A program made the position numbers and the translations under genes. DNA of 64,000 nt from Myxococcales bacterium. Lineage in GTDB: Bacteria > Lernaellota > Lernaellaia > Lernaellales > Lernaellaceae. Shown in pieces: positions 12,230-60,192 of this stretch. Numbering within the stretch: the stretch's first letter is position 1; each line of letters opens with the position of its first letter. The notes beneath the pieces were generated by a model. That model saw only the letters and a list, made by a program, of their open reading frames with translations. It made no database searches and was not told where the DNA came from. Location: contig JAAYVF010000132.1 of assembly GCA_012517325.1 (NCBI GenBank), forward strand, positions 9,665 to 73,664, read 5' to 3'.

Positions 12230-12232
12230 TCG

Positions 12233-12631: not shown

Positions 12632-12642
12632 GCGGCGGTTCG

Positions 12643-14376
12643 TCAATCCACGCGCGGTTTCGCCCAGACACCCCAGGCGCCGACCAGATCGCCGGACGGA
12701 TGCGGATCGGTCGACAACGCCAGGCTCACCGTGCGGCCGGCATACTCGGTCAGATCGACCGCCACCTCGTGCCAGCGGTTTTCCTCCGGGTTCGCCTTGG
12801 GATCGAGATACCGCGCGAAGCATTCATGGCCGTCGATTTCCACCTGAAAACGGACGCCTTTGCCGCCCCAACCCAAGCAAAGCGGGTCGAGGGCGATCGC
12901 GGCTGAAAAACGCGCGCCGGCGGGCACGAAAACCCGCCAAACGACCCGGCTGCGCGGATGGGCAAAGAGGCACAGCCGCTCGTCGCCGTCGATTTTCACC
13001 AGGTTCAGCCGCACCGGCTCATGGGCCAGTTCGCGCCCCACCCGGGCCGCGGGCAACTCGGCCAGCAGATCATACGAACCGAGCCGTTCCTTTTCCGCCT
13101 TGAGGCGCAGGGTCTCGCGGCGGAATTCCCAAAAGACTTCCTCCAACCGCTCGCGGCCGACCGCACCGGGTTTGAGGATCGATTTTTCGAAATAGGTCGG
13201 CCGGCCCGGTTGGTCGATCAGGTTTTCCGCCACGCAACGTCGATGCAGGCGCGTGCCCGGATAGGGATAGAAAATCGAGCACTGCGCGCCATTGGGCCGC
13301 AACTCACGGTGCAGGGCGAACAGGTCGCGGATCGTCTCCTCGGTTTCTCCGGGGAAGCCGACCATGTTGAAAGTCCAGGTCTGCAGGCCGATTTCGTCGC
13401 ACCAGCGGAAAACCCGGCGCAGGTCGTCGTTGCTCATGCGGCGGTTCAGCACCTCGGCGCGCAGGCGTTCGTTGCCCGCCTCGACGCCCGCCATCACCAT
13501 GTAACAGCCGGCGTCCTTCAGGGTCTGCAGAATCTCCCGCGTGACGGTCTGCACGTGGATGTAAATCTTGAAGGGGTACGAAAACCGTTCGCGGTACAGC
13601 GCGCAGAATCGCCGCACCCAATCGTGATCCAGGGTGAAGATGTCGTCCTCGAAAAAGATTTTGCGAAACGGGAGGTGCGCCGCGAGGTGGGCGACCAGGG
13701 CGATCATTTTTTCCGGGCGGCACATCCGCACGTACGGCCCGAGCCCCCGGTAGGCTTCACGGCGCGCGCTGTTGGCGCAATAGGCGCAGTCGAAGGGGCA
13801 GCCGCGCCCGCCCATGATGCCGATCTCGCCCAGCGCGTCGCGCAGAATTTCGTCGTGGTCCCACATCGCGCGGTCGTCGATCGGCAAGGCGTCGAGATCC
13901 GCGACCAGCGGCCGGCGCGGATTGCGTTCCACCGTTCCGTCGGGGCGGCGTTGCCACAAATTGCCGATACCGCCGGCCGGGCGACCGGCCTCGCGCGCGG
14001 CGCACCACTCGACGACGGCCGCCTCGCCCTCGCCGATGCAGACCACGTCGGCGAACGGCTCGCCGATCACGCTTTCCGGATCGAGGATCGCGTGAATGCC
14101 GCCGAACACGCAGGGCAGATCCGTCGCTTCCTTGACCCACCGAGCGTAACGCGGTGCGTCCACCCACTGATGAGTGTTGACCGGAAAAAACACGGCGTCC
14201 GGCGCGGCGGCGCGCAGCCGCGCGAGAAATTCGTCGCGCGCGAGGTGGTGGCGCAGGTAGAGCAGTTCGCTCGTGTGTCCCGCGCGCCGCAAGCAGGCAT
14301 CCAGTTGGCCGACGCCGTGATTGTAATGCACGTAATTGCCCGTCCCGGCATCGAGGTAGACCCACCAGATCTTCAT
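12643..14376 (-). CDS. B12-binding radical SAM enzyme with a ~150-aa C-terminal extension domain I do not recognise (paralog 1)
   Basis: An N-terminal Rossmann-like B12-binding region (MKIWWVYLD...) is followed by the radical SAM motif GCPFDCAYC. The C-terminal region (LFAHPRS...GVRFQVEIDG...WHEVAVDL...) is shared with the adjacent paralog. The start ATG overlaps the upstream stop as ATGA. Confidence 0.75.
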   Translation of the reverse strand: MKIWWVYLDAGTGNYVHYNHGVGQLDACLRRAGHTSELLYLRHHLARDEFLARLRAAAPDAVFFPVNTHQWVDAPRYARWVKEATDLPCVFGGIHAILDPESVIGEPFADVVCIGEGEAAVVEWCAAREAGRPAGGIGNLWQRRPDGTVERNPRRPLVADLDALPIDDRAMWDHDEILRDALGEIGIMGGRGCPFDCAYCANSARREAYRGLGPYVRMCRPEKMIALVAHLAAHLPFRKIFFEDDIFTLDHDWVRRFCALYRERFSYPFKIYIHVQTVTREILQTLKDAGCYMVMAGVEAGNERLRAEVLNRRMSNDDLRRVFRWCDEIGLQTWTFNMVGFPGETEETIRDLFALHRELRPNGAQCSIFYPYPGTRLHRRCVAENLIDQPGRPTYFEKSILKPGAVGRERLEEVFWEFRRETLRLKAEKERLGSYDLLAELPAARVGRELAHEPVRLNLVKIDGDERLCLFAHPRSRVVWRVFVPAGARFSAAIALDPLCLGWGGKGVRFQVEIDGHECFARYLDPKANPEENRWHEVAVDLTEYAGRTVSLALSTDPHPSGDLVGAWGVWAKPRVD

Positions 14377-16097
14377 CCGTCGCTCCGCGTCAAATGGGGA
14401 TGGCCCCAAAGCGCCCAAAGCGCCGTCAGGTCGTCACCGCTTTCCGGTGCGGTCAAGAGCCGCAACGATCCCTTTTCGGCGAGGCGAAAATCGGCCGCGA
14501 CCTCGTGCCAGCCGCGGTCTTCGACCCGGCGCCACGGATTCAACGCGCGGTCCAGGCAAGTCTCGTCACCGGCGCGGACGAGGAATCGCACTCCGTGGCC
14601 GTCCCATTCGTAGCAGCGCGGGTCCAGCGCCAGCGCCGCGAAAAAGCGATAACGTCCGGGCGGCAATTCGTAGGCGATCTCGCTGCGTGGATGGGCGAAA
14701 AGCGCGAATTTCGTCTCGCGGCCGATCCGCGCGCGCTGTGGGACGACGGGCTCGGCCCCCGTCCGCCGGACCAGCTCCGGCGCCCAGCGTTCGACCAGAT
14801 CCACTTCGCCGCGCCGCGCCGCCGCCAGGGCCCGCCGTAGCGCCCGCTCTTCCAGCTCCGGTATCGCCGCACAAAAAGCGCGATAGGTTTCGCGTTGTCG
14901 ATCGCTCGGAAAACCGGGCAGTTCGAGCGCCGGTTCGGCTGAAAAATACGTCGGCCGCGCGACGCCGCGATGCAGTTTTTCCACCCGGCAGCGTTCGGCG
15001 AGTTTCGTTCCCGGGTACGGTTCGAACAGGCTGACCTGGATCTGGTCGGGCAGCGTCGCGGCGCAAAGGTCGCGCGTGGCCTGCGCTGTTTCCGGCGTTT
15101 CGCCGGGCACGCCGAGAATGTGAAATGCGCGCGTCACGATGCCCAGTTCGCGGCACCAATCAAAAAACTCGGTGATTTGCGCATTGCTCATTTGGCGCCC
15201 GAGCACCTCAGCGCGGATGCGCGGGTCGCCGTGTTCCACGCCGACGTTCACCATCCACAGGCCGGCCGCGCGCAGCCGTCGCAGATCGTCCCGCGAAATC
15301 GCGCCGATCCGCGCGTAGACGCGAAACGGCAGCGCAAACCGGCTTGGGAACTCACGCAGGAATTCTTCGAGGAATTCACGGTTGAGCGTGAAAATATCGT
15401 CCTCGAAGTAAAGCGAATCGACCGCGTAACGACCGCACAAGCAATCCAGTTCCGCCAGCAGGTGCGACACGCTTCGCCACCGCACCCAGGGCTCGCCGGA
15501 ATAAAGCCGCCGCCAGCCTTCGTTGCAGCAATAGGTGCAGGGATACGGGCAGCCGCGGCCGGCGAGCGCCGTCAGTTCGCCGCCGTTGACCCGCAGGATT
15601 TCCGCCATCGGGAAATGCCGCCGGTCGTAAATCGGCAGCGCGTCCAGGTCGGTCAGCAACGGACGAAGCGCCGGGCGGTCGGTTCCCGTTTGGACATTGG
15701 CGATCGCGGTCAACGGTTTGCCGCCGGCCAGGTCGAGCAGCGCCCCCTCGCCCTCGCCGACGCAGACGCCGTCGCAGACCGCGGCGGCCAGGATTTCCTC
15801 GGGCGCGAAGGTCGCGTGCACGCCGCCCGCGAGCACGGGAACGCCGGCCTCGCGGGCCCAGGCCATCAGTTGCCGGGCGAACGGCCATTGGTGCGAGGAG
15901 AAACCGCAGGCGAGCCAATCGGGCGCGGCGGCGCGCAGTTCGAGTCGCCAGGATTCGCGCGTCAGCATTTCCTGCGGCAGGGAAACGACGGGCTCGTGGC
16001 CGGCGGCGGCGAGTCCTGCGGCCAGTGCGCCCAGGCCGTGCGGGTAATGAAGGCCGTTGCGGGTCGCGATATTCGGCACGACAAGCAGGATTCGCAT
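14373..16097 (-). CDS. B12-binding radical SAM enzyme with the same C-terminal extension (paralog 2)
   Basis: MRILLVVPNIATRNGLHYPHG is the B12-binding N-terminus, followed by the radical SAM motif GCPYPCTYC. The C-terminus (LFAHPRSEIAY...GVRFLVRAGD...GWHEVAADF...DDLTALWALWG) is homologous to paralog 1. Confidence 0.75.
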   Translation of the reverse strand: MRILLVVPNIATRNGLHYPHGLGALAAGLAAAGHEPVVSLPQEMLTRESWRLELRAAAPDWLACGFSSHQWPFARQLMAWAREAGVPVLAGGVHATFAPEEILAAAVCDGVCVGEGEGALLDLAGGKPLTAIANVQTGTDRPALRPLLTDLDALPIYDRRHFPMAEILRVNGGELTALAGRGCPYPCTYCCNEGWRRLYSGEPWVRWRSVSHLLAELDCLCGRYAVDSLYFEDDIFTLNREFLEEFLREFPSRFALPFRVYARIGAISRDDLRRLRAAGLWMVNVGVEHGDPRIRAEVLGRQMSNAQITEFFDWCRELGIVTRAFHILGVPGETPETAQATRDLCAATLPDQIQVSLFEPYPGTKLAERCRVEKLHRGVARPTYFSAEPALELPGFPSDRQRETYRAFCAAIPELEERALRRALAAARRGEVDLVERWAPELVRRTGAEPVVPQRARIGRETKFALFAHPRSEIAYELPPGRYRFFAALALDPRCYEWDGHGVRFLVRAGDETCLDRALNPWRRVEDRGWHEVAADFRLAEKGSLRLLTAPESGDDLTALWALWGHPHLTRSDG

Positions 16098-16119
16098 CGC
16101 GCGGCCCGCTCCGCCCGGC

Positions 16120-17625
16120 TTACAAGCGATAAAGCGGCGTGTATTTTTCGTCCAGGTAGTTCATGAACGGTTCGGCGCTCGGCTTTTTGCCGGTCACGCG
16201 CTCGATCAATTCGTTGCCGGCGTACCGTTTGCCGTGCACGTGGATATTCTTGCGCAGCCACCTGAGAATCGCCGTGAATCGTCCTTTTTCCACCAGCGCC
16301 AGGACGTCGGGAATGTCCGCGCGAATCTTTTCCCACAGTTGCGCCGCGTACAGGTTGCCGATGGTGTACGTCGGGAAATACCCCAGCGCGCCCAGCGACC
16401 AGTGCACGTCCTGCAACAGGCCGTTGGTGTTGTCGGGCACCGCGATGTCCAGGTACTCCTTCATCTTGGCGTTCCACAGCGCGGGCAGATCGTCGATCGC
16501 AACCCCGCCGGCCACCATCGCCCGCTCGATCTCGAAGCGCAGGATGATGTGCAGGTTGTAGGTGACCTCGTCGGCTTCCACGCGGATCAGCGACGGTTCG
16601 ACGACGTTCACGCAATGGTAGAAGTTCTCCAGCGAGAGATCGCGCAGGGATTTGGCGAAGGTGCGCTGGAATTTCGGATAGAAATATTTCCAGAACGACA
16701 GGCTGCGGCCCATGATGTTTTCCCAGAAGCGGCTCTGGCTCTCGTGCACGCCGAGCGACACCGCGTCGCCCAGCGGCGTCCCCAGGTGCGGGTCGGGCAG
16801 CCCTTGTTCGTACAGACCATGGCCCGCCTCGTGAATCGTGCCGAACAGGTGCGGCCGCGGATCGTCGACGAAGAACCGCGTGGTCAGGCGGACGTCGCCC
16901 TTGTTGCCGCCGCAGAACGGATGCGCCGAAACATCGATGCGGCCGCCCTCGAAATCGAAGCCCATCTTCCGCAGGACCAGCCGGCTGAATTTTTTCTGCT
17001 TTTCGATCGGGTAGCGGCGGCCGGCGAGCAGCAGCCGGGCGTCGTAGCGCGGGGCGCTCAGAATGCGCTGCAAAAACGGCACCAGCCGGCCCTTCAGGTC
17101 GGTCAGCAGTTCGCGGATCGACCCCTCGGTCGCAAACGGCTCGTGCAGATCCAACATCGCGTCGTAGGGGCGCTCCGCGTAGCCCAGCGCCGCCGCCTCT
17201 TCCTTGCGCAGGCGGACGGTCTTGGCGAGAAACGGCGCGAAGCGGGCGTAATTGTTATCCTGCCGGGCCTCGATCCAGGCCATTTGCGCCTGACTGTTGT
17301 GGCGGCTGATTTCCTCGACGAGCGCGGTGGGCACCTTGGTGGCGCGGTCAACTTCGCGCTTGATCTCCCGAATGTTGACCTTGCCGTCCGCGGTCAGGGC
17401 AGTCGAATGGGCCGCCAGTTCGCCGACCTTGGCCACCATCGCCGGATCGGTCATTTTGCGGTGCACCAGGCCGTCCAGAAAGGCCAGTTGCTCGCTGCGC
17501 CGCTCGAGGCCCTTTTTCGGCAGATTGACCTGCAGATCCCAACTCAGCACCTGGTTCATGCTGTTGACCAGCCAGATTTCCTTGTACCAGGCGATGACTT
17601 CCGCGTACGTTTCCTTCAGCGACAT
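16120..17625 (-). CDS. M32 family metallocarboxypeptidase (carboxypeptidase Taq-like)
   Basis: HEAGHGLYEQG is the HExxH motif. IRVEADE and LLQDVHWSLGALGYFPTYTIG are M32 signatures. Length is 501 aa. Confidence 0.8.
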   Translation of the reverse strand: MSLKETYAEVIAWYKEIWLVNSMNQVLSWDLQVNLPKKGLERRSEQLAFLDGLVHRKMTDPAMVAKVGELAAHSTALTADGKVNIREIKREVDRATKVPTALVEEISRHNSQAQMAWIEARQDNNYARFAPFLAKTVRLRKEEAAALGYAERPYDAMLDLHEPFATEGSIRELLTDLKGRLVPFLQRILSAPRYDARLLLAGRRYPIEKQKKFSRLVLRKMGFDFEGGRIDVSAHPFCGGNKGDVRLTTRFFVDDPRPHLFGTIHEAGHGLYEQGLPDPHLGTPLGDAVSLGVHESQSRFWENIMGRSLSFWKYFYPKFQRTFAKSLRDLSLENFYHCVNVVEPSLIRVEADEVTYNLHIILRFEIERAMVAGGVAIDDLPALWNAKMKEYLDIAVPDNTNGLLQDVHWSLGALGYFPTYTIGNLYAAQLWEKIRADIPDVLALVEKGRFTAILRWLRKNIHVHGKRYAGNELIERVTGKKPSAEPFMNYLDEKYTPLYRL

Positions 17626-17655
17626 CGTGCCTCTCCTTCGTTGCTTCGCCGCCGC

Positions 17656-18558
17656 CTACCACTCCGGCGCGGCGAACCCGATGCACTCGCGACCGCGCAG
17701 CCAACCGTCGCGGGCGTTGTAATAAAGACGCAGTTCGTTTCGATAAGCGACCAGGTCGAACGCGTAGACGAACGCGTTTTTCCAGCCGGGTTCGGGAGCG
17801 ATGATCGGGCGATCGTGAACCGCCTCGAAGTACAGCCCGTCGCCCGAACGCAACAACAGGATCGCCGACCGGCTGCGGCCCTCCGCGTCGCGGTACAGGC
17901 CGTTGTTGAAGGCCCAGAAGCCCTTTTTGCCGTCGGCGTACACCTTGAGCGAACCGCCGCCGAAATTGCGGTACGGCTCGGCCGGATCGGGGCCGAGGAG
18001 CGGCAACGGATGCCGCTTGTACGGCCCGAGCACGGCATCGGCCTCGGCGTAGCCGACGTAGCGCGGCTCGAAATACAGGCAATCCCACAGCCAGATCCAG
18101 GAGGTGCTGTAATAAAGACGGTACCGCCCGTCGATTTTCAGCAGGCAGGGATTGCCGACGAAGCGGATCGCCTGCCCGTCCCAGTCGAAGGTCGGTTCGG
18201 CCAGCGTTTGCGGTTCGCTCCAGTGTTCGAGGTCGGCCGATTGCCGCGCGACCACCCGGGAAGTGCGGTAATTGCGCGCGTGCAATTCGTAGAGCAGGTA
18301 AAACGTGCCGTTTTCCGGGTAGATGAACGCCCGGAAACCGCGAAACAGCCGCTGGCCGACCTGCTCCCAAGCGATGCCGTCGTCGCTTTTAAAATGCAGG
18401 ATGAAACCGACGCCGTTGGCGAACAGGTGCCATTTGCCGTCCGGCGACCGGTCGGGCGTCAACACGGTCGGATCGGCCAGCAGCCAATCCGGCTTCCGCG
18501 GTTCGATCAGCGGATTCGCCGGGAAATCCCGCCAGGTCGCCTTCGCTAAATCACGCAT
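17656..18558 (-). CDS. Glycoside-hydrolase-like five-bladed beta-propeller protein (GH43/GH130-like)
   Basis: 300 aa with repeated W/Y-rich blades (GKWHLFANG, GTFYLLYE, GRYRLYYSTS, GLYFEAVHD). The assignment is by fold-family resemblance only. Confidence 0.45.
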   Translation of the reverse strand: MRDLAKATWRDFPANPLIEPRKPDWLLADPTVLTPDRSPDGKWHLFANGVGFILHFKSDDGIAWEQVGQRLFRGFRAFIYPENGTFYLLYELHARNYRTSRVVARQSADLEHWSEPQTLAEPTFDWDGQAIRFVGNPCLLKIDGRYRLYYSTSWIWLWDCLYFEPRYVGYAEADAVLGPYKRHPLPLLGPDPAEPYRNFGGGSLKVYADGKKGFWAFNNGLYRDAEGRSRSAILLLRSGDGLYFEAVHDRPIIAPEPGWKNAFVYAFDLVAYRNELRLYYNARDGWLRGRECIGFAAPEW

Positions 18559-18597
18559 TAAAATCCTCGTTGAATTTCAGCGGAACCCGGCAAGTCT

Positions 18598-18619
18598 GCC
18601 AAGCCGGCGGCGGCTTGGC
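18598..18619. promoter_or_regulatory. Perfect 9-bp inverted repeat (GCCAAGCCG-gcgg-CGGCTTGGC) in the divergent promoter region between the two radical SAM operons; candidate operator
   Basis: A 22-nt palindrome seen directly in the sequence. It lies centrally in the 154-nt gap between divergently transcribed genes. A TATAAT hexamer sits 5 nt upstream of the 18713 start. Confidence 0.4.
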
Positions 18620-18712
18620 AAGCGGGAAGGCGAAATTGGCTGCCGCAACACGATCAGCCTGGCGACACAAGCGCGGATTCCCGCTTTTTTCCGACTCGCG
18701 CTATAATAAGGC

Positions 18713-19711
18713 ATGATTCCTCTGCCGCGATTCGTCACTTTTCACGTCACCAACCGCTGCAACTGCCGGTGCCGCCATTGCAACATCTGGCAGTTGCCCG
18801 AGCCGCCCGCGCCGGAAACGGAACAGTTTTGCCGCGCCGTAGACGATCTGGCCGACTGGCTCGGCCCGACCGAATTGGTCGTGGCCGGCGGCGAGCCTCT
18901 GCTTTGCCGCCACACGCTGCCGGTGCTCGAACGGGCGGCGCGGCGCGGCCTGCGAGCTTCCCTGGCCACCAACGGCCTGCTGCTCGACGAGGACATCGTG
19001 CGGCGGCTGGCCGCGCTCGGCCTCGAGGCGGTAAACATCAGCCTGGACGGCTTCGACCACACGCACGACCGGATCCGCAACCAACCGGGAGCGTTCGCGC
19101 GAGTGCTGCAAGCCGCCGAGGCGCTGCACCGGGCCGGCATCCGCGTCTGTGCGATCTGCGTGCTCATGGACGACAACCTCGACCAGATCACCGGCCTGGT
19201 CGATTTCCTCGCGCGCGGCGACCTGTTCGACGGCATCTTCTTCCAGGCGATGGCGCTGCCGTTCGGCACGCGCGCGGCCATCCCCGGCTGGTGGCGGGAA
19301 CACCCGCGGTTTCCGCACGACACCGCCCGCGTACGCGCCCTGCTCGACGAATTGCTGGCCATGAAGCGCGGCGGCTGGTTCATCCTCAACGAAGACAACC
19401 AATTCCCGGCGATGCAGGCCTACTTCGCCGCGCCCGATCGCTTCACGCTGGAGCGTTGCGCGGTCGGGGAGATCGGTTTCACGGTGAACGCCGGCGGCGA
19501 CGTGATGCTGTGCAATTACTTGGAACCGATCGGCAACATCGCCCGGGGTTCGCTCCGCGACATCTATTATTCGCCGGAGGCTGAACGACGGCGCCGGGAA
19601 ATGGCGGCCTGCCGGGACAACTGCCATCTGCTGATCAATTGCTGCTTCGATCCGTCACAACTGGTTTTACCTCCCGCGACGGCGGTCGCCACGGACGGCA
19701 GCCATGACTGA
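18713..19711 (+). CDS. Radical SAM protein with a C-terminal SPASM-like Cys-rich domain
   Basis: The N-terminal motif is CNCRCRHC (CxxxCxxC). The C-terminus has CAVGE...MLCNY...CRDNCHLLINCC, typical of SPASM/twitch auxiliary-cluster domains. Confidence 0.7.
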   Translation: MIPLPRFVTFHVTNRCNCRCRHCNIWQLPEPPAPETEQFCRAVDDLADWLGPTELVVAGGEPLLCRHTLPVLERAARRGLRASLATNGLLLDEDIVRRLAALGLEAVNISLDGFDHTHDRIRNQPGAFARVLQAAEALHRAGIRVCAICVLMDDNLDQITGLVDFLARGDLFDGIFFQAMALPFGTRAAIPGWWREHPRFPHDTARVRALLDELLAMKRGGWFILNEDNQFPAMQAYFAAPDRFTLERCAVGEIGFTVNAGGDVMLCNYLEPIGNIARGSLRDIYYSPEAERRRREMAACRDNCHLLINCCFDPSQLVLPPATAVATDGSHD

Positions 19712-20318
19712 GCCGCCGGTGGGGATGCGCCGCCGCACCATTGCCCTGCTGATCGCGATCAATTTCGCCTATCTCTTTTTCTGTTGCTTTTTTCAGCCTC
19801 CCTGGCGTTACGAATACCCGTTCGAACTCATGGGCGACGTCATCGCCTTCGTGCTCTTCGTCGCGGGATACATCCTTTATCTGTTCGTATTCTGGCTGCT
19901 CGGCCGCCGGATGGCCTTTCGCCCGAAGACCCGGCTCATCGGTCATCTGCTGCCCCTGGCGGTGATGACGGCGTTTTTCTTCCGCGATCTGACCGGCATC
20001 GGCGCGTACAACGGCGAACAGGTCATCCCCTCGCCCGATCGGTCACTGACGCTGGAAACCTACATCAATTGGCAGGCGAAGCATCCGACGGCCTGCAAAA
20101 CCTGCGTCGTCCTGCGTGTTAGGGACAAGGACGGCCGTGTTTTGACCGAAATTGATACCCATGCCAGCGATGTCCAGGGTTGGTCGGTCGATTGGCTGGA
20201 CAACGAGCAGATCGATTTTCACAGCAGCGATATCGGCGACACGAAATACCGGCGAGTCAGCGAGCGGGAATGGGCGCCGGTCGACCGCCAATCGCCTCGT
20301 TCCGATTTCAACGAATAG
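19704..20318 (+). CDS. Membrane protein of unknown function (N-terminal TM bundle plus C-terminal soluble domain)
   Basis: It overlaps the upstream stop by 8 nt. There are four hydrophobic helices. No motif I know. Confidence 0.5.
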   Translation: MTEPPVGMRRRTIALLIAINFAYLFFCCFFQPPWRYEYPFELMGDVIAFVLFVAGYILYLFVFWLLGRRMAFRPKTRLIGHLLPLAVMTAFFFRDLTGIGAYNGEQVIPSPDRSLTLETYINWQAKHPTACKTCVVLRVRDKDGRVLTEIDTHASDVQGWSVDWLDNEQIDFHSSDIGDTKYRRVSEREWAPVDRQSPRSDFNE

Positions 20319-20406
20319 AATGCTTTTGTCTCCCCGCGTATCCAAATCCGGTTGTCTGCTTCCGGCCGGCAAGGTATATTGATCGCGACATTTTTCAGGA
20401 GAATTC

Positions 20407-20782
20407 GATGCGCGTCGGCCGGATCATCGGTTTTTCGTTCACCGTGCTTTTTATCCTCCTGGGTTTGATCTTTCTGCTGGCCACGGGCAGCGCGCAGAAC
20501 ACCAACAAGAGCCAGGACCTGACGCTCGGCCTGATCCTCCTGGCGATCGGCATCGGCCTGCTGGTGCTGGTCTTGAAATTTCTGCCCGCGACCAAGGTGG
20601 AACACACGGTCATTCAGCGGGTGGAACTGACCGGAAAAATCGACCTGAACCAGATCAAGTGCCGCAACTGCGGCGGCAGCCTCGCCGCCGAGAGCCTCAA
20701 AATCGCCGGCGACGGAACGGTCGTCGCCTCTTGCCCGTATTGCGGCACCACGTTTCACGTCACGGAGGAACCCAAATGGTAA
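20407..20782 (+). CDS. Small membrane protein with C-terminal zinc-ribbon (CxxC...CxxC)
   Basis: 125 aa. Two TM helices are followed by CRNCGGSL...CPYCGTTFHV. Confidence 0.5.
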
Positions 20783-22380
20783 GCCGACGCGTTTGGCTGC
20801 TGGCCTTCCTCCTGCTGCTGGCCTTCGCGCCCGCCGCCGAAGCCGTAACCTACCTGTTCGAAGTGCCGTCGATGACCATCGACCTCCGGCCGCAGACCGA
20901 CGGCGGTTTGCACGTCCGCTACGACATCGTTTTCAAAAATCTCAGTTCGGACCCGATCGACATCGTCGACATCGGCACCCCCGATAAGAACTTCGCCCTT
21001 GGAACGTTCACCGCGACGCTCAACGGCAAGCCGCTCGGCGAGGTCCGCCCCAGTTCCTACGTCACCGGCGTGGAAGTACCGCTGACCGGCCATGAAATCC
21101 GCACCGGCAAGACCGGCCGGCTGGTCGTCGAATTCACCCACCCCAAAATGGTCTATGCGGACAGCGACGACGACGCCTACACCAGCGTCGAGTTCGGCAA
21201 CACCTACTTCGGCGCCGAATACGCCAAGAGCACCATGGACCTGACGGTGAACTGGCATTTCCCGGACGGCGTGACCGGCAACGAGACCAAGTGGCACGGC
21301 GACGAGCCGACGAGCAAAAAGGTGAGCGGCGACCACATCGTCTTCACCTACGAAAAACCGGCCGCCTCGCCGAGCCAGATGTACAAGTTCGGCATCGGTT
21401 TTCCCGCCCGCGTCATGCAGCCGGGCGCGATCGTCAAGGTGACGTTGCTCGATAGCTGCCTCGGCCTGCTAGCCGCCCTGGTGGGCGCGCTGGCGGGTCT
21501 GATGGCGATGATCTTCCCGATCGCCCTGTTCGCCGTGCCGATCATTCTGCGCCTGGTGCTGCATCGCCGCCGCATGAAGCATTACCTGCCGCCCGCCCTG
21601 GGCATCGAAGGCGCCGGACCGAAACGCGGCCTGACGGCCCCCGAGGCCGCCGTTGTGCTGGAAATGCCGCCCGACCGGGTATTGATGATGATCCTCTTCA
21701 GCCTGATGAAAAAAGGCGCCGTCACCGTTCAATCGACCAAACCGCTGAAGCTCGCCAAGGCCGACGTGATTCCCGACGAACTGCGCCCATACGAAAAAGA
21801 CTTTATCGGCACGATCCGCAAAGACGGCACCCCCGCCGAGGGCAAGCTGCGCGACCTGTTCGTCGATTTCATCAAGGCCGTGAACGCGAAGCTCAAGGGG
21901 TTTTCGCGCAAGGAAACCAAGGCGTTCTATCAAAGCGTCGTCGCCGCGGCCTGGAAACAGGTGGAAGGCGCCGCGACGCCGGAGGTCGGCAACCTCTTCG
22001 CCGACCGGGCGGAATGGCTGGCGATGGACGAGGATTTCGGCCGGAAATCCGATCGTATGTTCCGCGAACGCGAGGTGATCTTCCTGCCGGATTGGTGGCA
22101 TCACGGCTGGGGTTATAGCCGGCCGGTCGCCACGGCTGGCGGCGCGGCGCCCGGGCCGTTCTCCCTGCCCGGCGCGGATTTCGCGCACCAGTTCACTTCG
22201 TCCCTGTCGGCTTTTTCCAGCAACATCGTCGAGTCCATCTCCTCGTTTACCAATTCCAACACGTCCAAAACCAATCCGCCGCCGGTCACGACCAGTTCGG
22301 GCGGACATAGCGGCGGCGGTTGCGCCTGCGCCTGCGCTTGCGCCGGCTGTGCCTGTGCGTGTGCGGGAGGCGGTCGCTAG
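20776..22380 (+). CDS. DUF2207-like membrane protein (signal peptide, extracytoplasmic domain, TM, C-terminal domain) ending in a poly(Cys-Ala) tail
   Basis: The signal peptide is MVSRRVWLLAFLLLLAFAPAAEA. A long hydrophobic TM segment lies near aa 270-305. The C-terminus reads SSGGHSGGGCACACACAGCACACAGGGR. The overall architecture resembles DUF2207 proteins, whose tails are normally Gly/Ser-rich. The start overlaps the upstream stop (ATGGTAA). Confidence 0.55.
   Translation: MVSRRVWLLAFLLLLAFAPAAEAVTYLFEVPSMTIDLRPQTDGGLHVRYDIVFKNLSSDPIDIVDIGTPDKNFALGTFTATLNGKPLGEVRPSSYVTGVEVPLTGHEIRTGKTGRLVVEFTHPKMVYADSDDDAYTSVEFGNTYFGAEYAKSTMDLTVNWHFPDGVTGNETKWHGDEPTSKKVSGDHIVFTYEKPAASPSQMYKFGIGFPARVMQPGAIVKVTLLDSCLGLLAALVGALAGLMAMIFPIALFAVPIILRLVLHRRRMKHYLPPALGIEGAGPKRGLTAPEAAVVLEMPPDRVLMMILFSLMKKGAVTVQSTKPLKLAKADVIPDELRPYEKDFIGTIRKDGTPAEGKLRDLFVDFIKAVNAKLKGFSRKETKAFYQSVVAAAWKQVEGAATPEVGNLFADRAEWLAMDEDFGRKSDRMFREREVIFLPDWWHHGWGYSRPVATAGGAAPGPFSLPGADFAHQFTSSLSAFSSNIVESISSFTNSNTSKTNPPPVTTSSGGHSGGGCACACACAGCACACAGGGR
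22315..22377 (+). repeat. Imperfect hexanucleotide tandem repeat (TGCGCC/TGTGCG units) encoding the Cys-Ala tail
   Basis: tgcgcctgcgcctgcgcttgcgccggctgtgcctgtgcgtgtgcg is seen directly in the sequence. Confidence 0.7.
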
Positions 22381-22423
22381 CATGGGTTTCCCCAAGGCGG
22401 GAAAGCGGTAGGAAATCAAGCGC

Positions 22424-23815
22424 ATGAATTTACGGAAATGGGATCGCGCGGACACGGTCGGCTTGCTCTGCATTGCCGTCGGGTTGGGCGCGAATTTCCT
22501 GGTTCTGCAAAAATTGGTCAGCCCCACCGGCCAGATGCATACCCTCGTCTACAAGATTGCCATCACCGCCTTCGATCTGCTGGCGGTGGCGACGGGCGTT
22601 TTTCTGTTTCGCCGCGATCGCGTCAAGCTGCGAAAAGACAAGCGGCGCGCACTGGCTTTTTCGCTTTCGCTGGTACTTTCCCTCGTCGCGCTGGAGTTGT
22701 TTTTACGGCTCTACGACGACTATTTCCGGCCGCAACCGCCGCACGCCGGCTTCCTGCAAGCGAATCCGCACGGCACGGGCAGCTTTCGATTGATGCCGAA
22801 CACCGAAAAGGAACTGCTGCTCATGGGCCGTAAAAGCGTGGTGCGAATCAACTCGCTCGGCCTGCACGGCCCCGAGGTCCGGCGCGAGCCCGACCCGGGC
22901 CGGCCGCGCGTCGCCTTCGCCGGCGATTCCTTCACCTTCGGTTCGTTCGCCAGCGATTACGAGAAAACCTTCGTCAGCGTGTTCCAGCGAAAAGTGAAGC
23001 CGTCGATCGAAGCGTTGAATTTCGGCGTTTTCGGTTACGGCGTGGACGACATCCGGCTTTACCTGTCCGAGGAAATCCTTTCGTTCCACCCGGACTATCT
23101 CGTGGTCGTGATCTACGCGGGCAACGACTTTTCCGACACCTATCTCGGCTTGAACAAGCGGATCATCAACCCGGACGGGACGCTCGTCTGGAACGAAGCC
23201 TTGCTCGCCGAAAAAATCCCGCCGGAGTGGCGGCACAAGGAAAGCGCCGCCGGTCCGCCGAAGAACAACCGTCTGGGTTTGCGGCTGATCGAGGGCCTGG
23301 AATCGCTTCGCGTCGCCAACCTGCTGATGGACCTGACCTTCCGCTGGAACCAGCGGTTCATCGAAAAATCCGACTTTACCAGGTTCCGCGTACACGACGA
23401 CTTTCAAAGCGCGACGTTCTGGAGCCGCAAGGATTATCCGCCGATCGCCCGGGAAGCCGTCGCGGCCGTTCTGGACGAGCTGGCGCGTATTCAAGCCATT
23501 TGCAACGAACACGGCATCGTCCTGGCCCTCGCCGCGTTGCCCAGCAAGGAACAGGTTTACACGAAGCAACCGGTCGGGGCGGATTATGACATCGCCTATC
23601 CGCAGAAATTTCTCGCCGACTTCGCCGCCGAACGGCGGATTCCATACCTGGATCTGCAACCGATCCTGCGCCGCGCCTACCACGAGGAAGGGAAGTCGCC
23701 GTTCATGAACAACGACTCGCACTTCAACGACACCGGACATCGGCTGGTCGGCAAAGCGCTGGTGCGGTTTTTCCTCGAGGCCGTGCAGCCGTCGCGGCAG
23801 CAGCCCCTGCCCTGA
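22424..23815 (+). CDS. Membrane-anchored SGNH/GDSL-family hydrolase
   Basis: An N-terminal TM region precedes GDSFTFG (the GDS(L) block). There is a conserved Gly/Asn block, and DSHFNDTGH near the C-terminus (the DxxH block). Confidence 0.6.
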   Translation: MNLRKWDRADTVGLLCIAVGLGANFLVLQKLVSPTGQMHTLVYKIAITAFDLLAVATGVFLFRRDRVKLRKDKRRALAFSLSLVLSLVALELFLRLYDDYFRPQPPHAGFLQANPHGTGSFRLMPNTEKELLLMGRKSVVRINSLGLHGPEVRREPDPGRPRVAFAGDSFTFGSFASDYEKTFVSVFQRKVKPSIEALNFGVFGYGVDDIRLYLSEEILSFHPDYLVVVIYAGNDFSDTYLGLNKRIINPDGTLVWNEALLAEKIPPEWRHKESAAGPPKNNRLGLRLIEGLESLRVANLLMDLTFRWNQRFIEKSDFTRFRVHDDFQSATFWSRKDYPPIAREAVAAVLDELARIQAICNEHGIVLALAALPSKEQVYTKQPVGADYDIAYPQKFLADFAAERRIPYLDLQPILRRAYHEEGKSPFMNNDSHFNDTGHRLVGKALVRFFLEAVQPSRQQPLP

Positions 23816-23816
23816 T

Positions 23817-25550: not shown

Positions 25551-25708
25551 CCCGTTTCTCCTTCGCCGTGATTATCCGTGGCTTCGCTTAAGTATGCTCA
25601 CTTTTTTCGTTTTGCGAAGGGGCGCCAAGCCTCTTTGAATATTGGTTCAAAACCGATTATATTAAAGGGTCTTGGTTGGTTGCGGATCCCAAATTCAGGA
25701 GGTTTCTC

Positions 25709-27325: not shown

Positions 27326-27345
27326 CGACATCCGCGATGCGCACG

Positions 27346-27376
27346 GCGGCCGGGCCGGGCCCGGCCGCTTTTTTTT
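27346..27376 (+). terminator. Intrinsic terminator after the lipoprotein gene
   Basis: A 9-bp stem GCGGCCGGG / CCCGGCCGC with loop CCGGG is followed by TTTTTTTT. Confidence 0.65.
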
Positions 27377-27425
27377 CGCCCGGCGACTCCCCCGGCCTCG
27401 GGAAACCGTGTAAGCTCGCCGAACG

Positions 27426-28775: not shown

Positions 28776-28797
28776 ACTATTTTCGGCAAATCCGCGG

Positions 28798-28827
28798 TTG
28801 ACAAATGCATCAATGTAGATATATAGT
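28798..28827 (+). promoter_or_regulatory. Sigma70-like promoter (TTGACA-N18-TATAGT) immediately upstream of the arsR-family gene; would give a near-leaderless transcript
   Basis: TTGACA is at 28798. TATAGT ends 9 nt before the ATG at 28837. No strong SD is visible. Confidence 0.4.
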
Positions 28828-28836
28828 ATATTCACT

Positions 28837-29142
28837 ATGATTGACAAAGAAAAAAGCACTTTATTGAATCCGCAGGTGGCGTACCGGCGTTCCGAAACGC
28901 TCAAGGCGCTGGGGCATCCGATCCGCTTGAGCATTGTCGAACTGCTCAATCAGCAGGAACACAATGTCGGCGACCTGGCGCGCGAACTGACTCTGGACAG
29001 TGCCATCGTCAGCCAACAATTGAAAATCCTTCGGATGTCGGGGCTCGTGCAATCCGAGCGGCGCGAGGGGCACAGCTTTTACCGGTTGGCGATTCCCCAA
29101 CTTTCGCGCCTGCTCGAGTGCCTGCGTTCCTGCGATCATTGA
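28837..29142 (+). CDS. ArsR/SmtB family transcriptional regulator
   Basis: LKALGHPIRLSIVELL...VGDLARELTLDSAIVSQQLKILRMSGLV is a canonical ArsR wHTH. Confidence 0.85.
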   Translation: MIDKEKSTLLNPQVAYRRSETLKALGHPIRLSIVELLNQQEHNVGDLARELTLDSAIVSQQLKILRMSGLVQSERREGHSFYRLAIPQLSRLLECLRSCDH

Positions 29143-29173
29143 AAAATCCGTTTTGACGACGGGATAGAAAAAA

Positions 29174-29263
29174 ATGAAAGACGCATTGCTGCCGATTCTC
29201 ATTCTCGCCCTGTGGCTGGCCTTGCAGTTGTGGATTCTCCCCGCACTCGGCGTCTCCACCTGA
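29174..29263 (+). CDS. Possible 29-aa hydrophobic micropeptide (MKDALLPILILALWLALQLWILPALGVST)
   Basis: A short ORF not in the supplied track. It is a single predicted TM helix with a weak GGGA SD. It is speculative. Confidence 0.25.
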   Translation: MKDALLPILILALWLALQLWILPALGVST

Positions 29264-29372
29264 CTGCGCTCGACTTGCAATCTCCCGGGCGGAGAGAAAA
29301 CGAAAGAAAACAACACCGGTTCCCTGCCGGCTGAAAGCCAGACCGAGAAACATGTGCCAGGGGTAAACGATC

Positions 29373-29579: not shown

Positions 29580-29582
29580 GCG

Positions 29583-60188: not shown

Positions 60189-60192
60189 AGAC

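What the first reader, a model, noticed from the sequence alone, without database searches (positions are those of the whole stretch)
18713..23815. Divergent rSAM-SPASM operon with three membrane proteins, one ending in a 7-Cys poly(Cys-Ala) tail: candidate protein-tail maturation system
A SPASM-type radical SAM enzyme is followed, with overlapping start/stop codons (8-nt and 7-nt overlaps), by a membrane protein, a TM+zinc-ribbon protein and a DUF2207-like membrane protein. SPASM enzymes are known to form Cys-derived thioether or other crosslinks in RiPPs such as sactipeptides, ranthipeptides/SCIFF and PQQ. The C-terminus of the last protein is GGGCACACACAGCACACAGGGR, whereas DUF2207 tails are normally Gly/Ser-rich. 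No short precursor-peptide ORF is visible next to the rSAM. The Cys-rich tail of the co-transcribed protein is therefore the most obvious candidate substrate. The divergent operon carries two B12-rSAMs and a carboxypeptidase, and the tail ends in a GGGR that could be trimmed. Together this would be a protein-level, RiPP-like modification system that, as far as I know, has not been described.
Basis: inference. Interest (0 to 1): 0.7.

Follow-up and report, generated by a model that had tools for sequence, protein, structure and literature searches.

The report
Invariant Cys-Ala tail, non-cognate rSAM
A membrane protein here ends in a Cys-Ala tail that is nearly identical from Chloroflexi to Asgard archaea and usually sits beside a dedicated peptide-modifying radical-SAM enzyme set, but that set is missing from this window and the radical-SAM gene next door appears unrelated.

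Summary

The tail defines a family. All 120 homologues listed at 33-59% identity, and 132 of 147 cluster representatives, end in (CA)n…GGGR. Only synonymous codon changes occur in the tail.

In most other genomes the tail gene lies in a cassette with no curated-family or literature match found:
- a two-helix membrane protein with a zinc ribbon (ZnR)
- the Cys-Ala-tail protein (CA protein)
- a ~460-aa PqqD/RRE + radical SAM + SPASM enzyme (rSAM1)
- a paralogue without its cluster cysteines (rSAM2)
- a class I methyltransferase (MT)

Of 74 species-level CA-gene loci, 67 carry rSAM1. Of 66 rSAM1 loci, 65 have a tail upstream. So the idea that the tail is a radical-SAM substrate is well supported by gene context.

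- It has no RRE.
- It scores 77 bits against the rSAM1 profile; true members score 608-825.
- It is absent from all seven loci of the window's clade, which keep ZnR and the CA protein alone.
- Its own orthologues sit beside glycosyltransferase-type genes, never a tail gene.
- Its downstream membrane protein has no homologue outside near-identical strains.
- ZnR and the CA protein have their own promoter-like site, at the same position in two relatives.

Modelling places the tail in the cytoplasm. The chemistry is unknown.

The parts
20776..22380 (+). Cys-Ala-tail membrane protein (CA protein), 534 aa. It has a signal peptide, an extracytoplasmic beta-sandwich (residues ~28-210), one long transmembrane helix (224-268), a cytoplasmic winged-helix plus helical domain (288-499) and a disordered tail (512-534).
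   Evidence: ORF. 120 homologues listed. AF2 model with pLDDT 87.4. Hydropathy, with HRRRMKH following the helix. Foldseek matches to the N-terminal domains of ribophorin I/Ost1 and M1 aminopeptidases. 475 clusters at 50% identity with E <= 1e-30.
22321..22377 (+). The tail CACACACAGCACACAGGGR-COOH, which is the proposed core (substrate) peptide.
   Evidence: Sequence. Almost invariant in 120 homologues. Present in 132 of 147 cluster representatives; the other 15 are truncated. 47 distinct DNA versions with only synonymous variation. Within the window's clade, 10-15 of 57 nt differ and all changes are synonymous.
22246..22284 (+). Conserved motif F491-x4-T496-x2-T499-N500-P501-x-P503, located 12-25 residues upstream of the core. 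It may act as a leader-like recognition element for an RRE (inferred).
   Evidence: F491, T499 and P501 are invariant and T496, N500 and P503 nearly invariant across 110 sequences.
20408..20782 (+). ZnR: 124 aa, two transmembrane helices plus a cytoplasmic CxxC…CxxC zinc ribbon, ending in …TEEPKW. It is translationally coupled to the CA gene by a 7-nt overlap.
   Evidence: It scores 116.9 bits against a profile built from 56 ZnR neighbours of CA genes. It lies upstream of the CA gene in about 60 of 76 genome loci and in 42 of 44 metagenome loci. 54 of 56 ZnR proteins end in PKW.
20352..20380 (+). Sigma-70-like promoter site TTGTCT-17-TATATT in the 89-nt gap upstream of ZnR.
   Evidence: It is the only such site in 18400-24000 (1.2 expected by chance, so weak on its own). 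Similar -35 and -10 elements align at the same position upstream of ZnR in L077 and L001, where no radical SAM gene precedes it.
18713..19711 (+). rSAM332: radical SAM (C16-x3-C20-x2-C23) plus a variant SPASM/twitch domain (C-x17-C … C-x3-C-x5-CC). It has no RRE. It belongs to a separate module and is probably not the tail maturase.
   Evidence: best NCBIfam hit is AhbD at 99 bits, cut-off 500. (76.7 bits against the rSAM1 profile, 17 bits against rSAM2). (small family of about 19 proteins). (contexts without a CA gene). (nearest PDB sequence matches SkfB, BlsE, PqqE, Tes and MoaA, over the core only).
19704..20318 (+). TM204: a 204-aa membrane protein with no homologues outside near-identical strains, overlapping rSAM332 by 8 nt.
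   Evidence: Only itself was found among 5.8 billion proteins. One near-identical strain copy lies on the same 5.4-kb contig as a 96%-identical rSAM332. No hit in 76 related loci.
22424..23815 (+). GDSL/SGNH (AlgX-like) hydrolase with N-terminal transmembrane segments.
   Evidence: Pfam hits. No homologue in any of the 76 related loci. Absent from the syntenic loci L001, L066 and L167.
12643..18558 (-). Divergent block: GH43-like gene (17656-18558), M32 carboxypeptidase (16120-17625) and two B12-binding radical SAM genes (14373-16097 and 12643-14418). These are syntenic neighbours within this lineage only.
   Evidence: Pfam hits. The M32 and GH43-like genes flank ZnR-CA in L001, L066, L077, L078 and L167; in L002 only the GH43-like gene is visible. 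The same block flanks an rSAM332 orthologue with no CA gene in L083. M32 and the B12 radical SAM genes were found in only 2 of the 76 family loci.

Best explanation
The region holds two unrelated modules.

**Module 1 (20352-22380).** This is the substrate half of a widespread radical-SAM tail-maturation system for which I found no description.

Shown here:
- A zinc-ribbon membrane protein (ZnR) is translationally coupled to a type I membrane protein (CA protein).
- The C-terminus of the CA protein is an invariant (Cys-Ala)4-Gly-(Cys-Ala)3-Gly-Gly-Gly-Arg.
- In most lineages these two genes are followed directly by three others: an RRE + radical SAM + SPASM enzyme (rSAM1), a paralogue that has lost its cluster cysteines (rSAM2), and a class I SAM methyltransferase (MT).

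Inferred:
- The signal peptide exports the N-terminal beta-sandwich. A single helix spans the membrane. The helical domain and the tail stay in the cytoplasm, next to the ZnR zinc ribbon.
- The RRE of rSAM1 docks on the conserved F-x4-T-x2-TNP-x-P motif just upstream of the Ser/Gly linker.
- rSAM1 then cross-links the tail cysteines, most likely as sactionine- or ranthionine-type thioethers to neighbouring Ala carbons. This would give a rigid ladder that stays on the protein, since the cassette has no conserved protease or exporter.

Speculative:
- rSAM2 acts as a scaffold for the bipartite core.
- The methyltransferase caps a thiol or the C-terminal carboxylate.

In this window, and in its whole clade, the three maturase genes are absent from the neighbourhood. 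The tail and the upstream motif are nevertheless under strict purifying selection, so the maturase is probably encoded elsewhere in the genome.

**Module 2 (18713-20318).** This is an RRE-less SPASM/twitch radical SAM gene plus a membrane protein with no homologues outside near-identical strains. Orthologues of the enzyme head operons with glycosyltransferase-type or other envelope-type genes. It most likely acts on a non-peptide, envelope-related substrate and lies next to Module 1 only through local synteny.
For: **Tail as a family hallmark.**. Selection acts at the protein level.

**Cassette.**
- Genome loci: 67 of the 74 loci that hold a CA gene also hold an rSAM1-family gene, about 56-60 of 76 have ZnR, and 42-48 have the methyltransferase.
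- Metagenome loci recovered with rSAM1 as the query: CA gene 60/60, ZnR 42/44, rSAM2 63/65, MT 40/47. The order zn>ca>r1>r2>mt is the commonest.
- L169 (Zixibacteria) shows ZnR-CA-rSAM-MT in independent gene calls.

**rSAM1 architecture.** PqqD, Radical_SAM and SPASM domains, with a full CxxxCxxC motif and a 7-Cys SPASM. The nearest solved relatives are the peptide cross-linkers SkfB, PqqE, SuiB and CteB.

**rSAM2.** Its cluster cysteines are replaced. Only partial Radical_SAM and weak PqqD hits remain.

**Topology.**

**Two modules in the window.**
- An 89-nt gap holds a promoter-like site, with similar elements at the same position in two relatives.
- rSAM332 is not in the rSAM1/rSAM2 clade.
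- rSAM332 and TM204 are missing from L001, L002, L066, L077, L078 and L167. ZnR-CA also stands alone, with no radical SAM gene nearby, in L168 and L170.
- rSAM332 orthologues occur in other contexts.
- TM204 has no homologue outside near-identical strains.
- The 64-kb window has no methyltransferase or rSAM2 homologue.
Against: - No chemistry was observed. The modification, its type and even the identity of the modified residues are inferred from gene context and from analogy with RRE + SPASM enzymes.
- At least ten loci have ZnR-CA with no radical SAM gene within 8-10 kb: the window's clade, L168, L170 and L043. A tail function that needs no maturase is therefore possible.
- I could not search the rest of this MAG, so a maturase encoded elsewhere is an assumption.
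- rSAM332 is on the same strand, 0.7 kb upstream, and read-through into ZnR-CA is not excluded.
- The promoter-like site alone is no more than chance would give (1 found, 1.2 expected).
- The 80 loci in the reciprocal test are all close rSAM1 relatives (56-69% identity), so they are not independent.
- ZnR also has a near-invariant C-terminus (…EEPKW) and could be a second substrate, or the real one.
Confidence: 0.6

Rival explanations
1. One reading: rSAM332 is the tail maturase in this genome. It would have replaced the canonical RRE enzyme, and rSAM332, TM204, ZnR and the CA protein would form one operon.
For: - The genes share a strand and lie close together, and rSAM332 is the only SPASM-type enzyme in the 64-kb window.
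- The canonical maturase genes are missing from the neighbourhood.
- The tail is cytoplasmic and so accessible.
- No short precursor ORF competes as a substrate.
Against: - rSAM332 has no RRE.
- It scores 76.7 bits against the rSAM1 profile. True members score 608-825, and even the degenerate paralogue scores 180-299.
- All seven loci of the window's clade keep an invariant tail without rSAM332 nearby.
- All four orthologue contexts examined lack a CA gene.
- ZnR-CA has a separate promoter-like site.
- TM204 has no homologue outside near-identical strains.
Confidence: 0.1
2. The (Cys-Ala)n tail works unmodified, as a cytoplasmic metal- or Fe-S-binding or redox-sensing motif. The neighbouring RRE + radical SAM + SPASM enzyme would then act on something else, for example the ZnR C-terminus …EEPKW, or would deliver a cluster.
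For: - Seven cysteines at i, i+2 spacing would line one face of an extended strand (from the sequence).
- Stand-alone ZnR-CA pairs with intact tails exist in several lineages.
- The ZnR C-terminus is nearly invariant, with 54 of 56 ending in PKW.
- SuiB, a Lys-Trp cross-linker, is among the solved relatives of rSAM1.
Against: - RRE-fused SPASM enzymes characteristically act on an adjacent peptide core (established knowledge of AlbA, CteB, SuiB and PqqD/E).
- The CA gene accompanies rSAM1 in 60 of 60 loci. ZnR is missing from the Heimdall/Hodarchaeota loci, which still have CA plus rSAM1.
- A conserved leader-like motif lies at a typical distance upstream of the core.
- Ala, and not only Cys, is invariant, which fits an enzyme-recognised core better than a simple ligand set.
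Confidence: 0.17
3. In this clade the divergent B12-binding radical SAM pair and the M32 carboxypeptidase process the tail, by C-methylation and by trimming of GGGR.
For: - The M32 and GH43-like genes flank ZnR-CA in every locus of the clade where that flank is visible. The B12 pair flanks it in the window, L001, L066 and L167.
- The B12 enzymes give weak hits to RiPP enzymes: ApyD at 111 bits and rSAM_ocin_1.
Against: - The same B12, M32 and GH43-like block occurs with no CA gene in L083.
- L077 and L078 lack the B12 genes.
- The block was found in only 2-3 of 76 family loci.
- All hits are far below family cut-offs, and HpnJ scores equally well.
- GGGR is conserved as the true C-terminus across the family, including lineages with no M32 nearby.
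Confidence: 0.05
4. The tail is a lipidation (S-acylation) or membrane-tethering signal, and no radical SAM enzyme is involved.
For: The cysteine-rich C-terminus belongs to a membrane protein and is predicted to be disordered.
Against: - No acyltransferase is conserved in the cassette.
- Exact conservation of 19 residues across bacteria and archaea, together with a dedicated RRE + radical SAM partner, is not expected for a lipidation patch.
Confidence: 0.03

Closest known systems
Sactipeptide and ranthipeptide maturation, including SCIFF: RRE + radical SAM + SPASM enzymes such as AlbA, SkfB, CteB and PapB acting on Cys-rich precursor peptides
   Same: The family's partner enzyme has the same three-part architecture, PqqD/RRE + radical SAM + a 7-Cys SPASM. 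SkfB and CteB are among its nearest solved relatives. The presumed core is C-terminal and Cys-rich, and a conserved motif precedes it.
   Different: The 'precursor' is the tail of a 530-570-aa type I membrane protein and not a 40-60-aa peptide. The cassette has no conserved protease or exporter. A catalytically degenerate paralogue and a methyltransferase accompany the enzyme. No NCBIfam model for these systems reaches its cut-off. In this window the enzyme itself is absent.
QhpD acting on QhpC: thioether cross-linking of the gamma subunit of quinohemoprotein amine dehydrogenase by a SPASM radical SAM enzyme
   Same: A SPASM enzyme makes Cys-derived cross-links that remain in a functional protein and are not released as a peptide (my own knowledge, not tested here).
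   Different: QhpC is a small periplasmic subunit, and its cross-links run from Cys to Asp or Glu. It has no (CA)n repeat, no membrane anchor and no RRE-fused architecture of this kind.
Anaerobic sulfatase-maturating enzymes (anSME/AtsB)
   Same: A SPASM radical SAM enzyme acts on a Cys in a full-length protein. The rSAM1 profile matches the anSME SPASM region (E = 1e-9).
   Different: anSME has no RRE and targets a single C/S-x-P-x-R motif. rSAM332 gives no significant match to anSME, and no sulfatase is present.
ACGX-repeat peptide system (TIGR04340 radical SAM/SPASM enzyme with ACGX-repeat peptides)
   Same: A SPASM enzyme is paired with a short repeat that contains Ala and Cys. rSAM332 hits TIGR04340 weakly.
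   Different: The score is 92 bits against a cut-off of 400, so rSAM332 is not a member. The repeat unit and the protein context differ. My recollection of the peptide family is from memory only.
DUF2207 and TIGR04222 membrane proteins with low-complexity C-terminal tails
   Same: They share the overall layout: an exported N-terminal domain, a transmembrane helix, a cytoplasmic region containing a G-L-T-x-x-E-A-A motif and a low-complexity tail. UniRef labels one family member as DUF2207.
   Different: PF09972 hits 0 of 16 members. DUF2207_C and TIGR04222 hit only below threshold. The exact (CA)n…GGGR tail and the radical SAM cassette are specific to this family. The function of DUF2207 is itself unknown (PMC10457818).
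PqqE/PqqD/PqqA and mycofactocin MftC/MftB/MftA
   Same: PqqE is the best NCBIfam hit for three of the five rSAM1 proteins scanned. These are RRE-guided modifications of residues in the C-terminal core.
   Different: All scores are far below the cut-offs (103-152 against 381). Those products are small cofactors cut out of short peptides.

Membership tests
Radical SAM / SPASM superfamily (rSAM332) | A CxxxCxxC motif with a Radical_SAM domain, plus a C-terminal Cys-rich SPASM/twitch domain | tested here: met
   PF04055 at E = 2.6e-26. PF13186 at 27.6 bits, above its 21.5 cut-off. The motif is C16-x3-C20-x2-C23. The C-terminal cysteine pattern is C-x17-C…C-x3-C-x5-CC, which deviates from the canonical C-x2-C-x5-C-x3-C (read from the sequence).
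RiPP maturases with an RRE (AlbA, CteB, SuiB type), tested for rSAM332 | An N-terminal PqqD-like RiPP recognition element | tested here: not met
   There is no PF05402 hit. The cluster motif starts at residue 16, which leaves no room for an RRE. The family partner rSAM1 does have one.
rSAM1, the cognate maturase family of CA-tail proteins, tested for rSAM332 | Scores like a member against a profile built from 28 rSAM1 sequences | tested here: not met
   76.7 bits against 608-825 for members. The pseudo-enzyme paralogues score 180-299.
AhbD / AhbC / NirJ, the best NCBIfam hits of rSAM332 | Score at or above the curated cut-off | tested here: not met
   99, 95 and 94 bits against cut-offs of 500, 650 and 515. 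The matches cover only residues 8-170.
Anaerobic sulfatase maturase, tested for rSAM332 | Sequence similarity to anSME, and a sulfatase substrate | tested here: not met
   anSME is not among the PDB sequence matches at E <= 1e-3. No sulfatase was seen among the neighbours scanned. The rest of the genome was not searched.
CA-tail protein family, defined here | A C-terminal (C-A/V)n[G/S](C-A/V)n-GGGR-COOH tail preceded by a Ser/Gly linker and a TNPxP-type motif | tested here: met
   Window tail. Family alignments. 132 of 147 representatives carry the tail.
CA-tail protein family, defined here | Architecture: signal peptide, beta-sandwich, single transmembrane helix, cytoplasmic winged-helix and helical domain | tested here: met
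   AF2 model with pLDDT 87.4. Hydropathy and charge distribution. The topology is predicted and not measured.
CA-tail cassette, defined here | A ZnR gene immediately upstream and translationally coupled | tested here: met
   A 7-nt overlap. 116.9 bits against the ZnR profile.
CA-tail cassette, defined here | Adjacent RRE + radical SAM + SPASM gene, with or without the pseudo-enzyme and the methyltransferase | tested here: not met
   The 64-kb window contains no rSAM1, rSAM2 or methyltransferase homologue apart from the weak rSAM332 match. The same is true of the clade relatives within 10 kb.
DUF2207 (PF09972) | Pfam HMM score at or above the gathering threshold | tested here: not met
   0 of 16 members hit at E <= 0.1.
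TIGR04222 domain-containing membrane proteins | NCBIfam score of 43 bits or more | tested here: not met
   24.4 bits over residues 250-373. Four of 16 members hit below threshold. The family is probably a distant relative.
Sactipeptide / ranthipeptide chemistry | Cys-S to C-alpha, C-beta or C-gamma thioether links in the product | not testable with these tools
   This requires mass spectrometry or NMR of the modified tail.

The most novel reading that the evidence does not exclude
The (Cys-Ala)n…GGGR tail, with ZnR, the RRE + radical SAM + SPASM enzyme, its dead paralogue and a methyltransferase, would be an undescribed and ancient system. It is found in Chloroflexota, Planctomycetota, Zixibacteria, Acidobacteriota and Aminicenantes. 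It is also found in Methanomassiliicoccales, Thermoplasmatota, Nanoarchaeia and Heimdall-type Asgard archaea. The system would install a radical-derived cross-linked structure on the cytoplasmic C-terminus of a full-length type I membrane protein. That would be RiPP chemistry used to build a permanent protein feature and not a secreted peptide. This window would hold a member whose maturase is encoded elsewhere in the genome.
Probability: 0.5. Interest if true: 0.85.

Novelty: new variant of a known kind. Interest (0 to 1): 0.7.

Why it matters
RRE-guided radical SAM/SPASM enzymes are known almost only as makers of small secreted or cofactor peptides. Here the same machinery appears tied to one exact 14-21-residue Cys-Ala sequence at the cytoplasmic end of a large membrane protein. 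That sequence is conserved codon-independently across bacterial phyla and archaea, including Asgard lineages.

If the tail is modified, three things follow:
- RiPP-type chemistry would extend to permanent modification of a protein.
- A defined, easily expressed substrate-enzyme pair would become available for finding the reaction. Cultured hosts exist: Ornatilinea apprima (locus L020) and Leptolinea tardivitalis (P0096).
- There would be a first functional handle on the very large group of DUF2207/TIGR04222-like membrane proteins with unexplained low-complexity tails.

For genome mining, this is a caution. The nearest radical SAM gene is not necessarily the cognate one. Here it is a decoy.

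Tried and rejected
**Rejected after testing**
- A short precursor ORF next to rSAM332. ORFs of 20 aa or more in both intergenic regions show nothing Cys-rich or otherwise convincing.
- A riboswitch or other RNA element. Rfam finds nothing in 12000-30000.
- rSAM332 as an RRE-truncated orthologue of rSAM1 or rSAM2. The profile scores reject this.
- The GDSL hydrolase, M32 carboxypeptidase and B12 radical SAM genes as cassette members. They are not conserved with CA genes, and the block occurs without a CA gene in L083.
- Filing the CA protein under DUF2207. The HMM does not hit.

**Led nowhere**
- Extending beyond the window to look for the maturase. The left-edge protein is not on record. The right-edge protein returned only a 4.4-kb contig with flagellar genes.
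- The AFDB50 fold library was unavailable.
- The PDB fold search gave only generic matches for the N-terminal beta-sandwich (ribophorin I, M1 aminopeptidase) and no functional lead for the cytoplasmic domain.
- Five literature searches found no description of the tail or the cassette. One of them was badly designed, because 'SPASM' matched clinical 'spasm'.

**Not examined**
- Whether the roughly 520 other genome stretches that matched the CACACACA or GCACACAG peptide patterns are tails on other architectures or simply low-complexity DNA. They were not kept as loci.

Full report
**1. What is in the window**

The + strand between 18713 and 23815 carries five ORFs. NCBI's annotation of the source MAG ('Myxococcales bacterium') calls the first four exactly as I delimit them, as NLH51115.1 to NLH51118.1.

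| Coordinates | Length | Name used here | Main features |
|---|---|---|---|
| 18713-19711 | 332 aa | rSAM332 | Pfam Radical_SAM and SPASM |
| 19704-20318 | 204 aa | TM204 | two clear transmembrane segments; 8-nt overlap with rSAM332 |
| 20408-20782 | 124 aa | ZnR | two transmembrane segments plus CxxC…CxxC |
| 20776-22380 | 534 aa | CA protein | 7-nt overlap with ZnR; ends GGGCACACACAGCACACAGGGR |
| 22424-23815 | 463 aa | GDSL463 | GDSL/SGNH/AlgX-like hydrolase |

The divergent strand carries a GH43-like gene, an M32 carboxypeptidase and two B12-binding radical SAM genes.

One thing was missed. TM204 and ZnR are separated by 89 nt. That gap contains the only sigma-70-like site in the region, TTGTCT-17-TATATT at 20352-20380, followed by an AGGAG ribosome-binding site.

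**2. The tail is the signature of a family**

A search with the 534-aa protein listed 120 homologues at 33-59% identity. Virtually all end in the identical 19 residues CACACACAGCACACAGGGR. In alignments of 16 and 110 sequences the tail columns are invariant, while mean column identity is 44-50%.

The search tool selects candidates by shared words, which could favour tail-bearing proteins. I therefore ran an unbiased profile search of 1.84 billion cluster representatives.
- It found 475 clusters at E <= 1e-30 and 1269 at E <= 1e-3.
- Of the 147 newly returned representatives among the best 150, 132 end in a (CA)n tail. The other 15 are visibly truncated.

The tail varies by lineage:

| Group | Tail |
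|---|---|
| Most bacteria | (CA)4-G-(CA)3-GGGR |
| Planctomycete-type | (CA)3-G-(CA)4-GGGR |
| Methanomassiliicoccales and Heimdall-type archaea | (CA)5-6-GGGR |
| Nanoarchaeia-type | longer forms with C-V and Ser |

At the DNA level, 47 loci encode the canonical tail with 47 different sequences, using both Cys codons and all Ala and Gly codons. Selection therefore acts on the peptide and not on a nucleotide repeat.

**3. The conserved neighbourhood**

A scan of one genome per GTDB species returned 76 loci. They come from Chloroflexota/Anaerolineae, Planctomycetota, Acidobacteriota, Aminicenantes, Sabulitectum, Hydrogenedentales and Myxococcota. Archaeal loci come from Methanomassiliicoccales, Thermoplasmatota, Nanoarchaeia and Heimdall/Hodarchaeota.

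I clustered all ORFs within 6 kb of the CA gene. This gives a cassette in the order ZnR, CA protein, rSAM1, rSAM2, methyltransferase:
- rSAM1-family genes are present in 67 of the 74 loci that hold a CA gene.
- ZnR is present in about 56-60 of the 76 loci.
- The methyltransferase is present in 42-48.
- Planctomycete-type loci use the order ZnR, rSAM1, rSAM2, CA, MT.
- All 8 loci with an uninterrupted tail, 7 of them named as archaea, have CA, rSAM1 and usually MT, but no rSAM2.

The components look like this:
- **rSAM1** is about 460 aa. It carries PqqD (an RRE), Radical_SAM and SPASM domains. It has an intact CxxxCxxC motif and a canonical 7-Cys SPASM ending in CGGGCP. Its nearest solved relatives are SkfB, PqqE, SuiB and CteB, all of which cross-link peptides.
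- **rSAM2** is about 385 aa and is a clear paralogue (180-354 bits in cross-profile scoring). Its radical SAM and SPASM cysteines are replaced, so it is a pseudo-enzyme that keeps an RRE-like N-terminus.
- **The methyltransferase** is a class I Methyltransf_11 protein.

No cassette protein reaches any NCBIfam cut-off. Five literature searches found no description of the cassette.

For the reciprocal test I used an rSAM1 alignment as the query against metagenome contigs and obtained 80 loci.
- Of 66 loci with enough upstream DNA, 65 have a CA-tail stop codon upstream, 58 of them within 600 nt.
- By profile assignment, a CA gene is present in 60/60, ZnR in 42/44, rSAM2 in 63/65 and MT in 40/47.
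- These 80 loci are all close relatives (56-69% identity), so they are not independent. The genome-level set supplies the taxonomic breadth.

Independent gene calls for a Zixibacteria contig show ZnR-CA-rSAM/SPASM-MT.

**4. Topology and a leader-like element**

The AF2 model has a mean pLDDT of 87.4. Its elements are:

| Residues | Element |
|---|---|
| N-terminus | signal-peptide helix |
| 28-210 | beta-sandwich |
| 224-268 | one continuous helix |
| 288-499 | winged-helix plus helical domain |
| 512-534 | disordered tail |

The helix is followed by HRRRMKH. With a cleaved signal peptide and a single span, the C-terminal domain and the tail are cytoplasmic. ZnR has a positively charged N-terminus and two spans, which places its zinc ribbon in the cytoplasm as well. 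These are predictions.

A conserved motif lies 12-25 residues before the core. F491, T499 and P501 are invariant and T496, N500 and P503 nearly invariant. It is followed by a variable Ser/Gly linker. This is the geometry of a RiPP leader and core, and the motif is a plausible RRE docking site (inference).

The fold search matched only the N-terminal sandwich, to ribophorin I/Ost1 and M1 aminopeptidase N-terminal domains.

**5. Why the neighbouring radical SAM gene is not the partner**

- rSAM332 starts its cluster motif at residue 16, so it has no room for an RRE.
- It scores 76.7 bits against the rSAM1 profile, where members score 608-825, and 17 bits against rSAM2. This is less than it scores against AhbD in NCBIfam (99 bits against a cut-off of 500).
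- Its SPASM cysteine pattern is atypical: C-x3-C-x5-CC.
- The window's own clade comprises L001, L002, L066, L077, L078 and L167, whose CA proteins are 52-59% identical to the window's. It is syntenic with the window: the M32 and GH43-like genes lie divergently upstream wherever that flank is visible, and the S15 peptidase lies downstream in several of these loci. In all of them ZnR follows the divergent intergenic region directly. None has rSAM332, TM204 or the GDSL gene, and none has any radical SAM/SPASM gene within 10 kb.
- L168 and L170, which are more distant, are also stand-alone ZnR-CA pairs.
- The -35 and -10 elements upstream of ZnR in the window align with similar elements at the same position in L077 and L001. 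This suggests that ZnR-CA is an inherited transcription unit.
- rSAM332 belongs to a small family of about 19 proteins at 44-96% identity. The four orthologue contexts are shown below; none contains a CA gene.

| Locus | Context of the rSAM332 orthologue |
|---|---|
| L083/L084 | same B12x2/M32/GH43-like block upstream; rSAM, then GT2, then GT4 |
| L081/L082 | rSAM, then PMT_2 |
| L079/L080 | rSAM, then GH79C |
| L085 | rSAM, then DUF123, near PcrB, a B12-binding radical SAM gene and PEMT |

- TM204 matches only itself and one near-identical strain among 5.8 billion proteins.

**6. The tail is still under selection in the clade that lacks an adjacent maturase**

Across the window, L001, L002, L066, L077, L078, L167 and L168, the 57 tail nucleotides differ from the window at 10-15 positions. 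Every change is synonymous. The leader-like motif is also retained.

The most economical reading is that the maturase is encoded elsewhere in these genomes. The alternatives are that the unmodified tail has a function or that another enzyme substitutes. I keep these as rival explanations.

**7. Mechanism**

Shown:
- the tail is a family hallmark under purifying selection
- tight mutual gene linkage with an RRE + radical SAM + SPASM enzyme
- the composition of the cassette
- the two-module structure of the window

Inferred:
- cytoplasmic exposure of the tail
- RRE docking on the upstream motif
- radical SAM-catalysed cross-linking of the tail cysteines, most likely as thioethers, by analogy with SkfB, CteB, AlbA, PapB and QhpD
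- retention of the product on the protein, because the cassette has no protease or exporter

Speculative:
- rSAM2 as a scaffold. It occurs only with bipartite tails, in 43 of 65 such loci against 0 of 8 with uninterrupted tails. This split largely follows the divide between bacteria and archaea, so phylogeny confounds it.
- The target of the methyltransferase.

rSAM332 most likely acts on a non-peptide substrate connected with the cell envelope. That is a weak inference from its neighbours.

**8. Verdict**

The system that emerges is a new variant of RiPP-type radical SAM maturation. It acts on the tail of a full-length membrane protein, it is widespread in anaerobic bacteria and archaea, and it is absent from Pfam, from NCBIfam and from the literature I could search.

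In this window only the substrate half is present.

Noticed in passing
window 20753-20782, and the ZnR genes of L001-L074: The small zinc-ribbon membrane protein also has a near-invariant C-terminus. Of 56 homologues, 54 end in PKW-COOH, typically YQLTEEPKW, and all 56 have CxxC…CxxC. It could be a second substrate or a docking partner. SuiB, a Lys-Trp cross-linker, is among the solved relatives of rSAM1.
   Followed up: partly
L020:13135-14295, L027:12978-14159, L031:13483-14628 and about 40 other loci: A paralogue of the maturase follows it in most bacterial cassettes. It keeps the RRE-like N-terminus but has lost the CxxxCxxC and SPASM cysteines, so it is a pseudo radical SAM protein. It is absent from all 8 loci with uninterrupted (CA)n tails, 7 of which are named as archaea.
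   Followed up: partly
L040:9839-11620 and 11692-13620; P0159, P0160, P0162, P0165: One Chloroflexia MAG (record title 'uncultured Chloroflexia bacterium') has two tandem CA-tail paralogues. Some representatives are 766-774 aa long and match the profile in two stretches. This suggests an additional or duplicated N-terminal domain, which I did not check.
   Followed up: no
window 18702-18715: A perfect TATAAT hexamer ends 5 nt before the ATG of rSAM332, and there is no Shine-Dalgarno sequence. The gene may be expressed from a leaderless mRNA.
   Followed up: no
window 25676-27325 (+); L001:15596-17260; L066:13424-15058: A roughly 550-aa lipoprotein-like protein has an extraordinary Asp/Asn-rich low-complexity stretch just after its N-terminal Cys (…CGDDDDDNDNDNDN…DDNDDNDDNDDN…). 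It has no Pfam hit and is conserved in the syntenic relatives.
   Followed up: partly
window 12643-16097 (-); L083:1926-5380; L167:3594-7057: Two tandem B12-binding radical SAM genes of about 575-590 aa have a C-terminal extension of about 190 aa. Their best hits, HpnJ and ApyD, are far below the cut-offs. They travel with the M32 and GH43-like genes in several related genomes, with or without the CA gene. Their substrate is unknown.
   Followed up: partly
window 58428-62732 (L086); L077:15902-21605: Flagellar genes (FliK-like Flg_hook, FlgD and FlgE, plus flagellins in the relative L077) occur in a MAG labelled 'Myxococcales bacterium'. Myxobacteria are not flagellated (my own knowledge), so the taxonomic label of the MAG is doubtful.
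   Followed up: no
L085:1-4000: One rSAM332 orthologue lies near PcrB (GGGP-synthase-like), a B12-binding radical SAM gene, PEMT and an FAD-dependent reductase. This looks like a lipid-modification context and is a possible lead to the substrate class of the rSAM332 family.
   Followed up: no
L069:6293-6637 and 13 other loci: A small PAS-like protein of about 114 aa recurs downstream of the cassette in 14 Anaerolineae-type loci.
   Followed up: no
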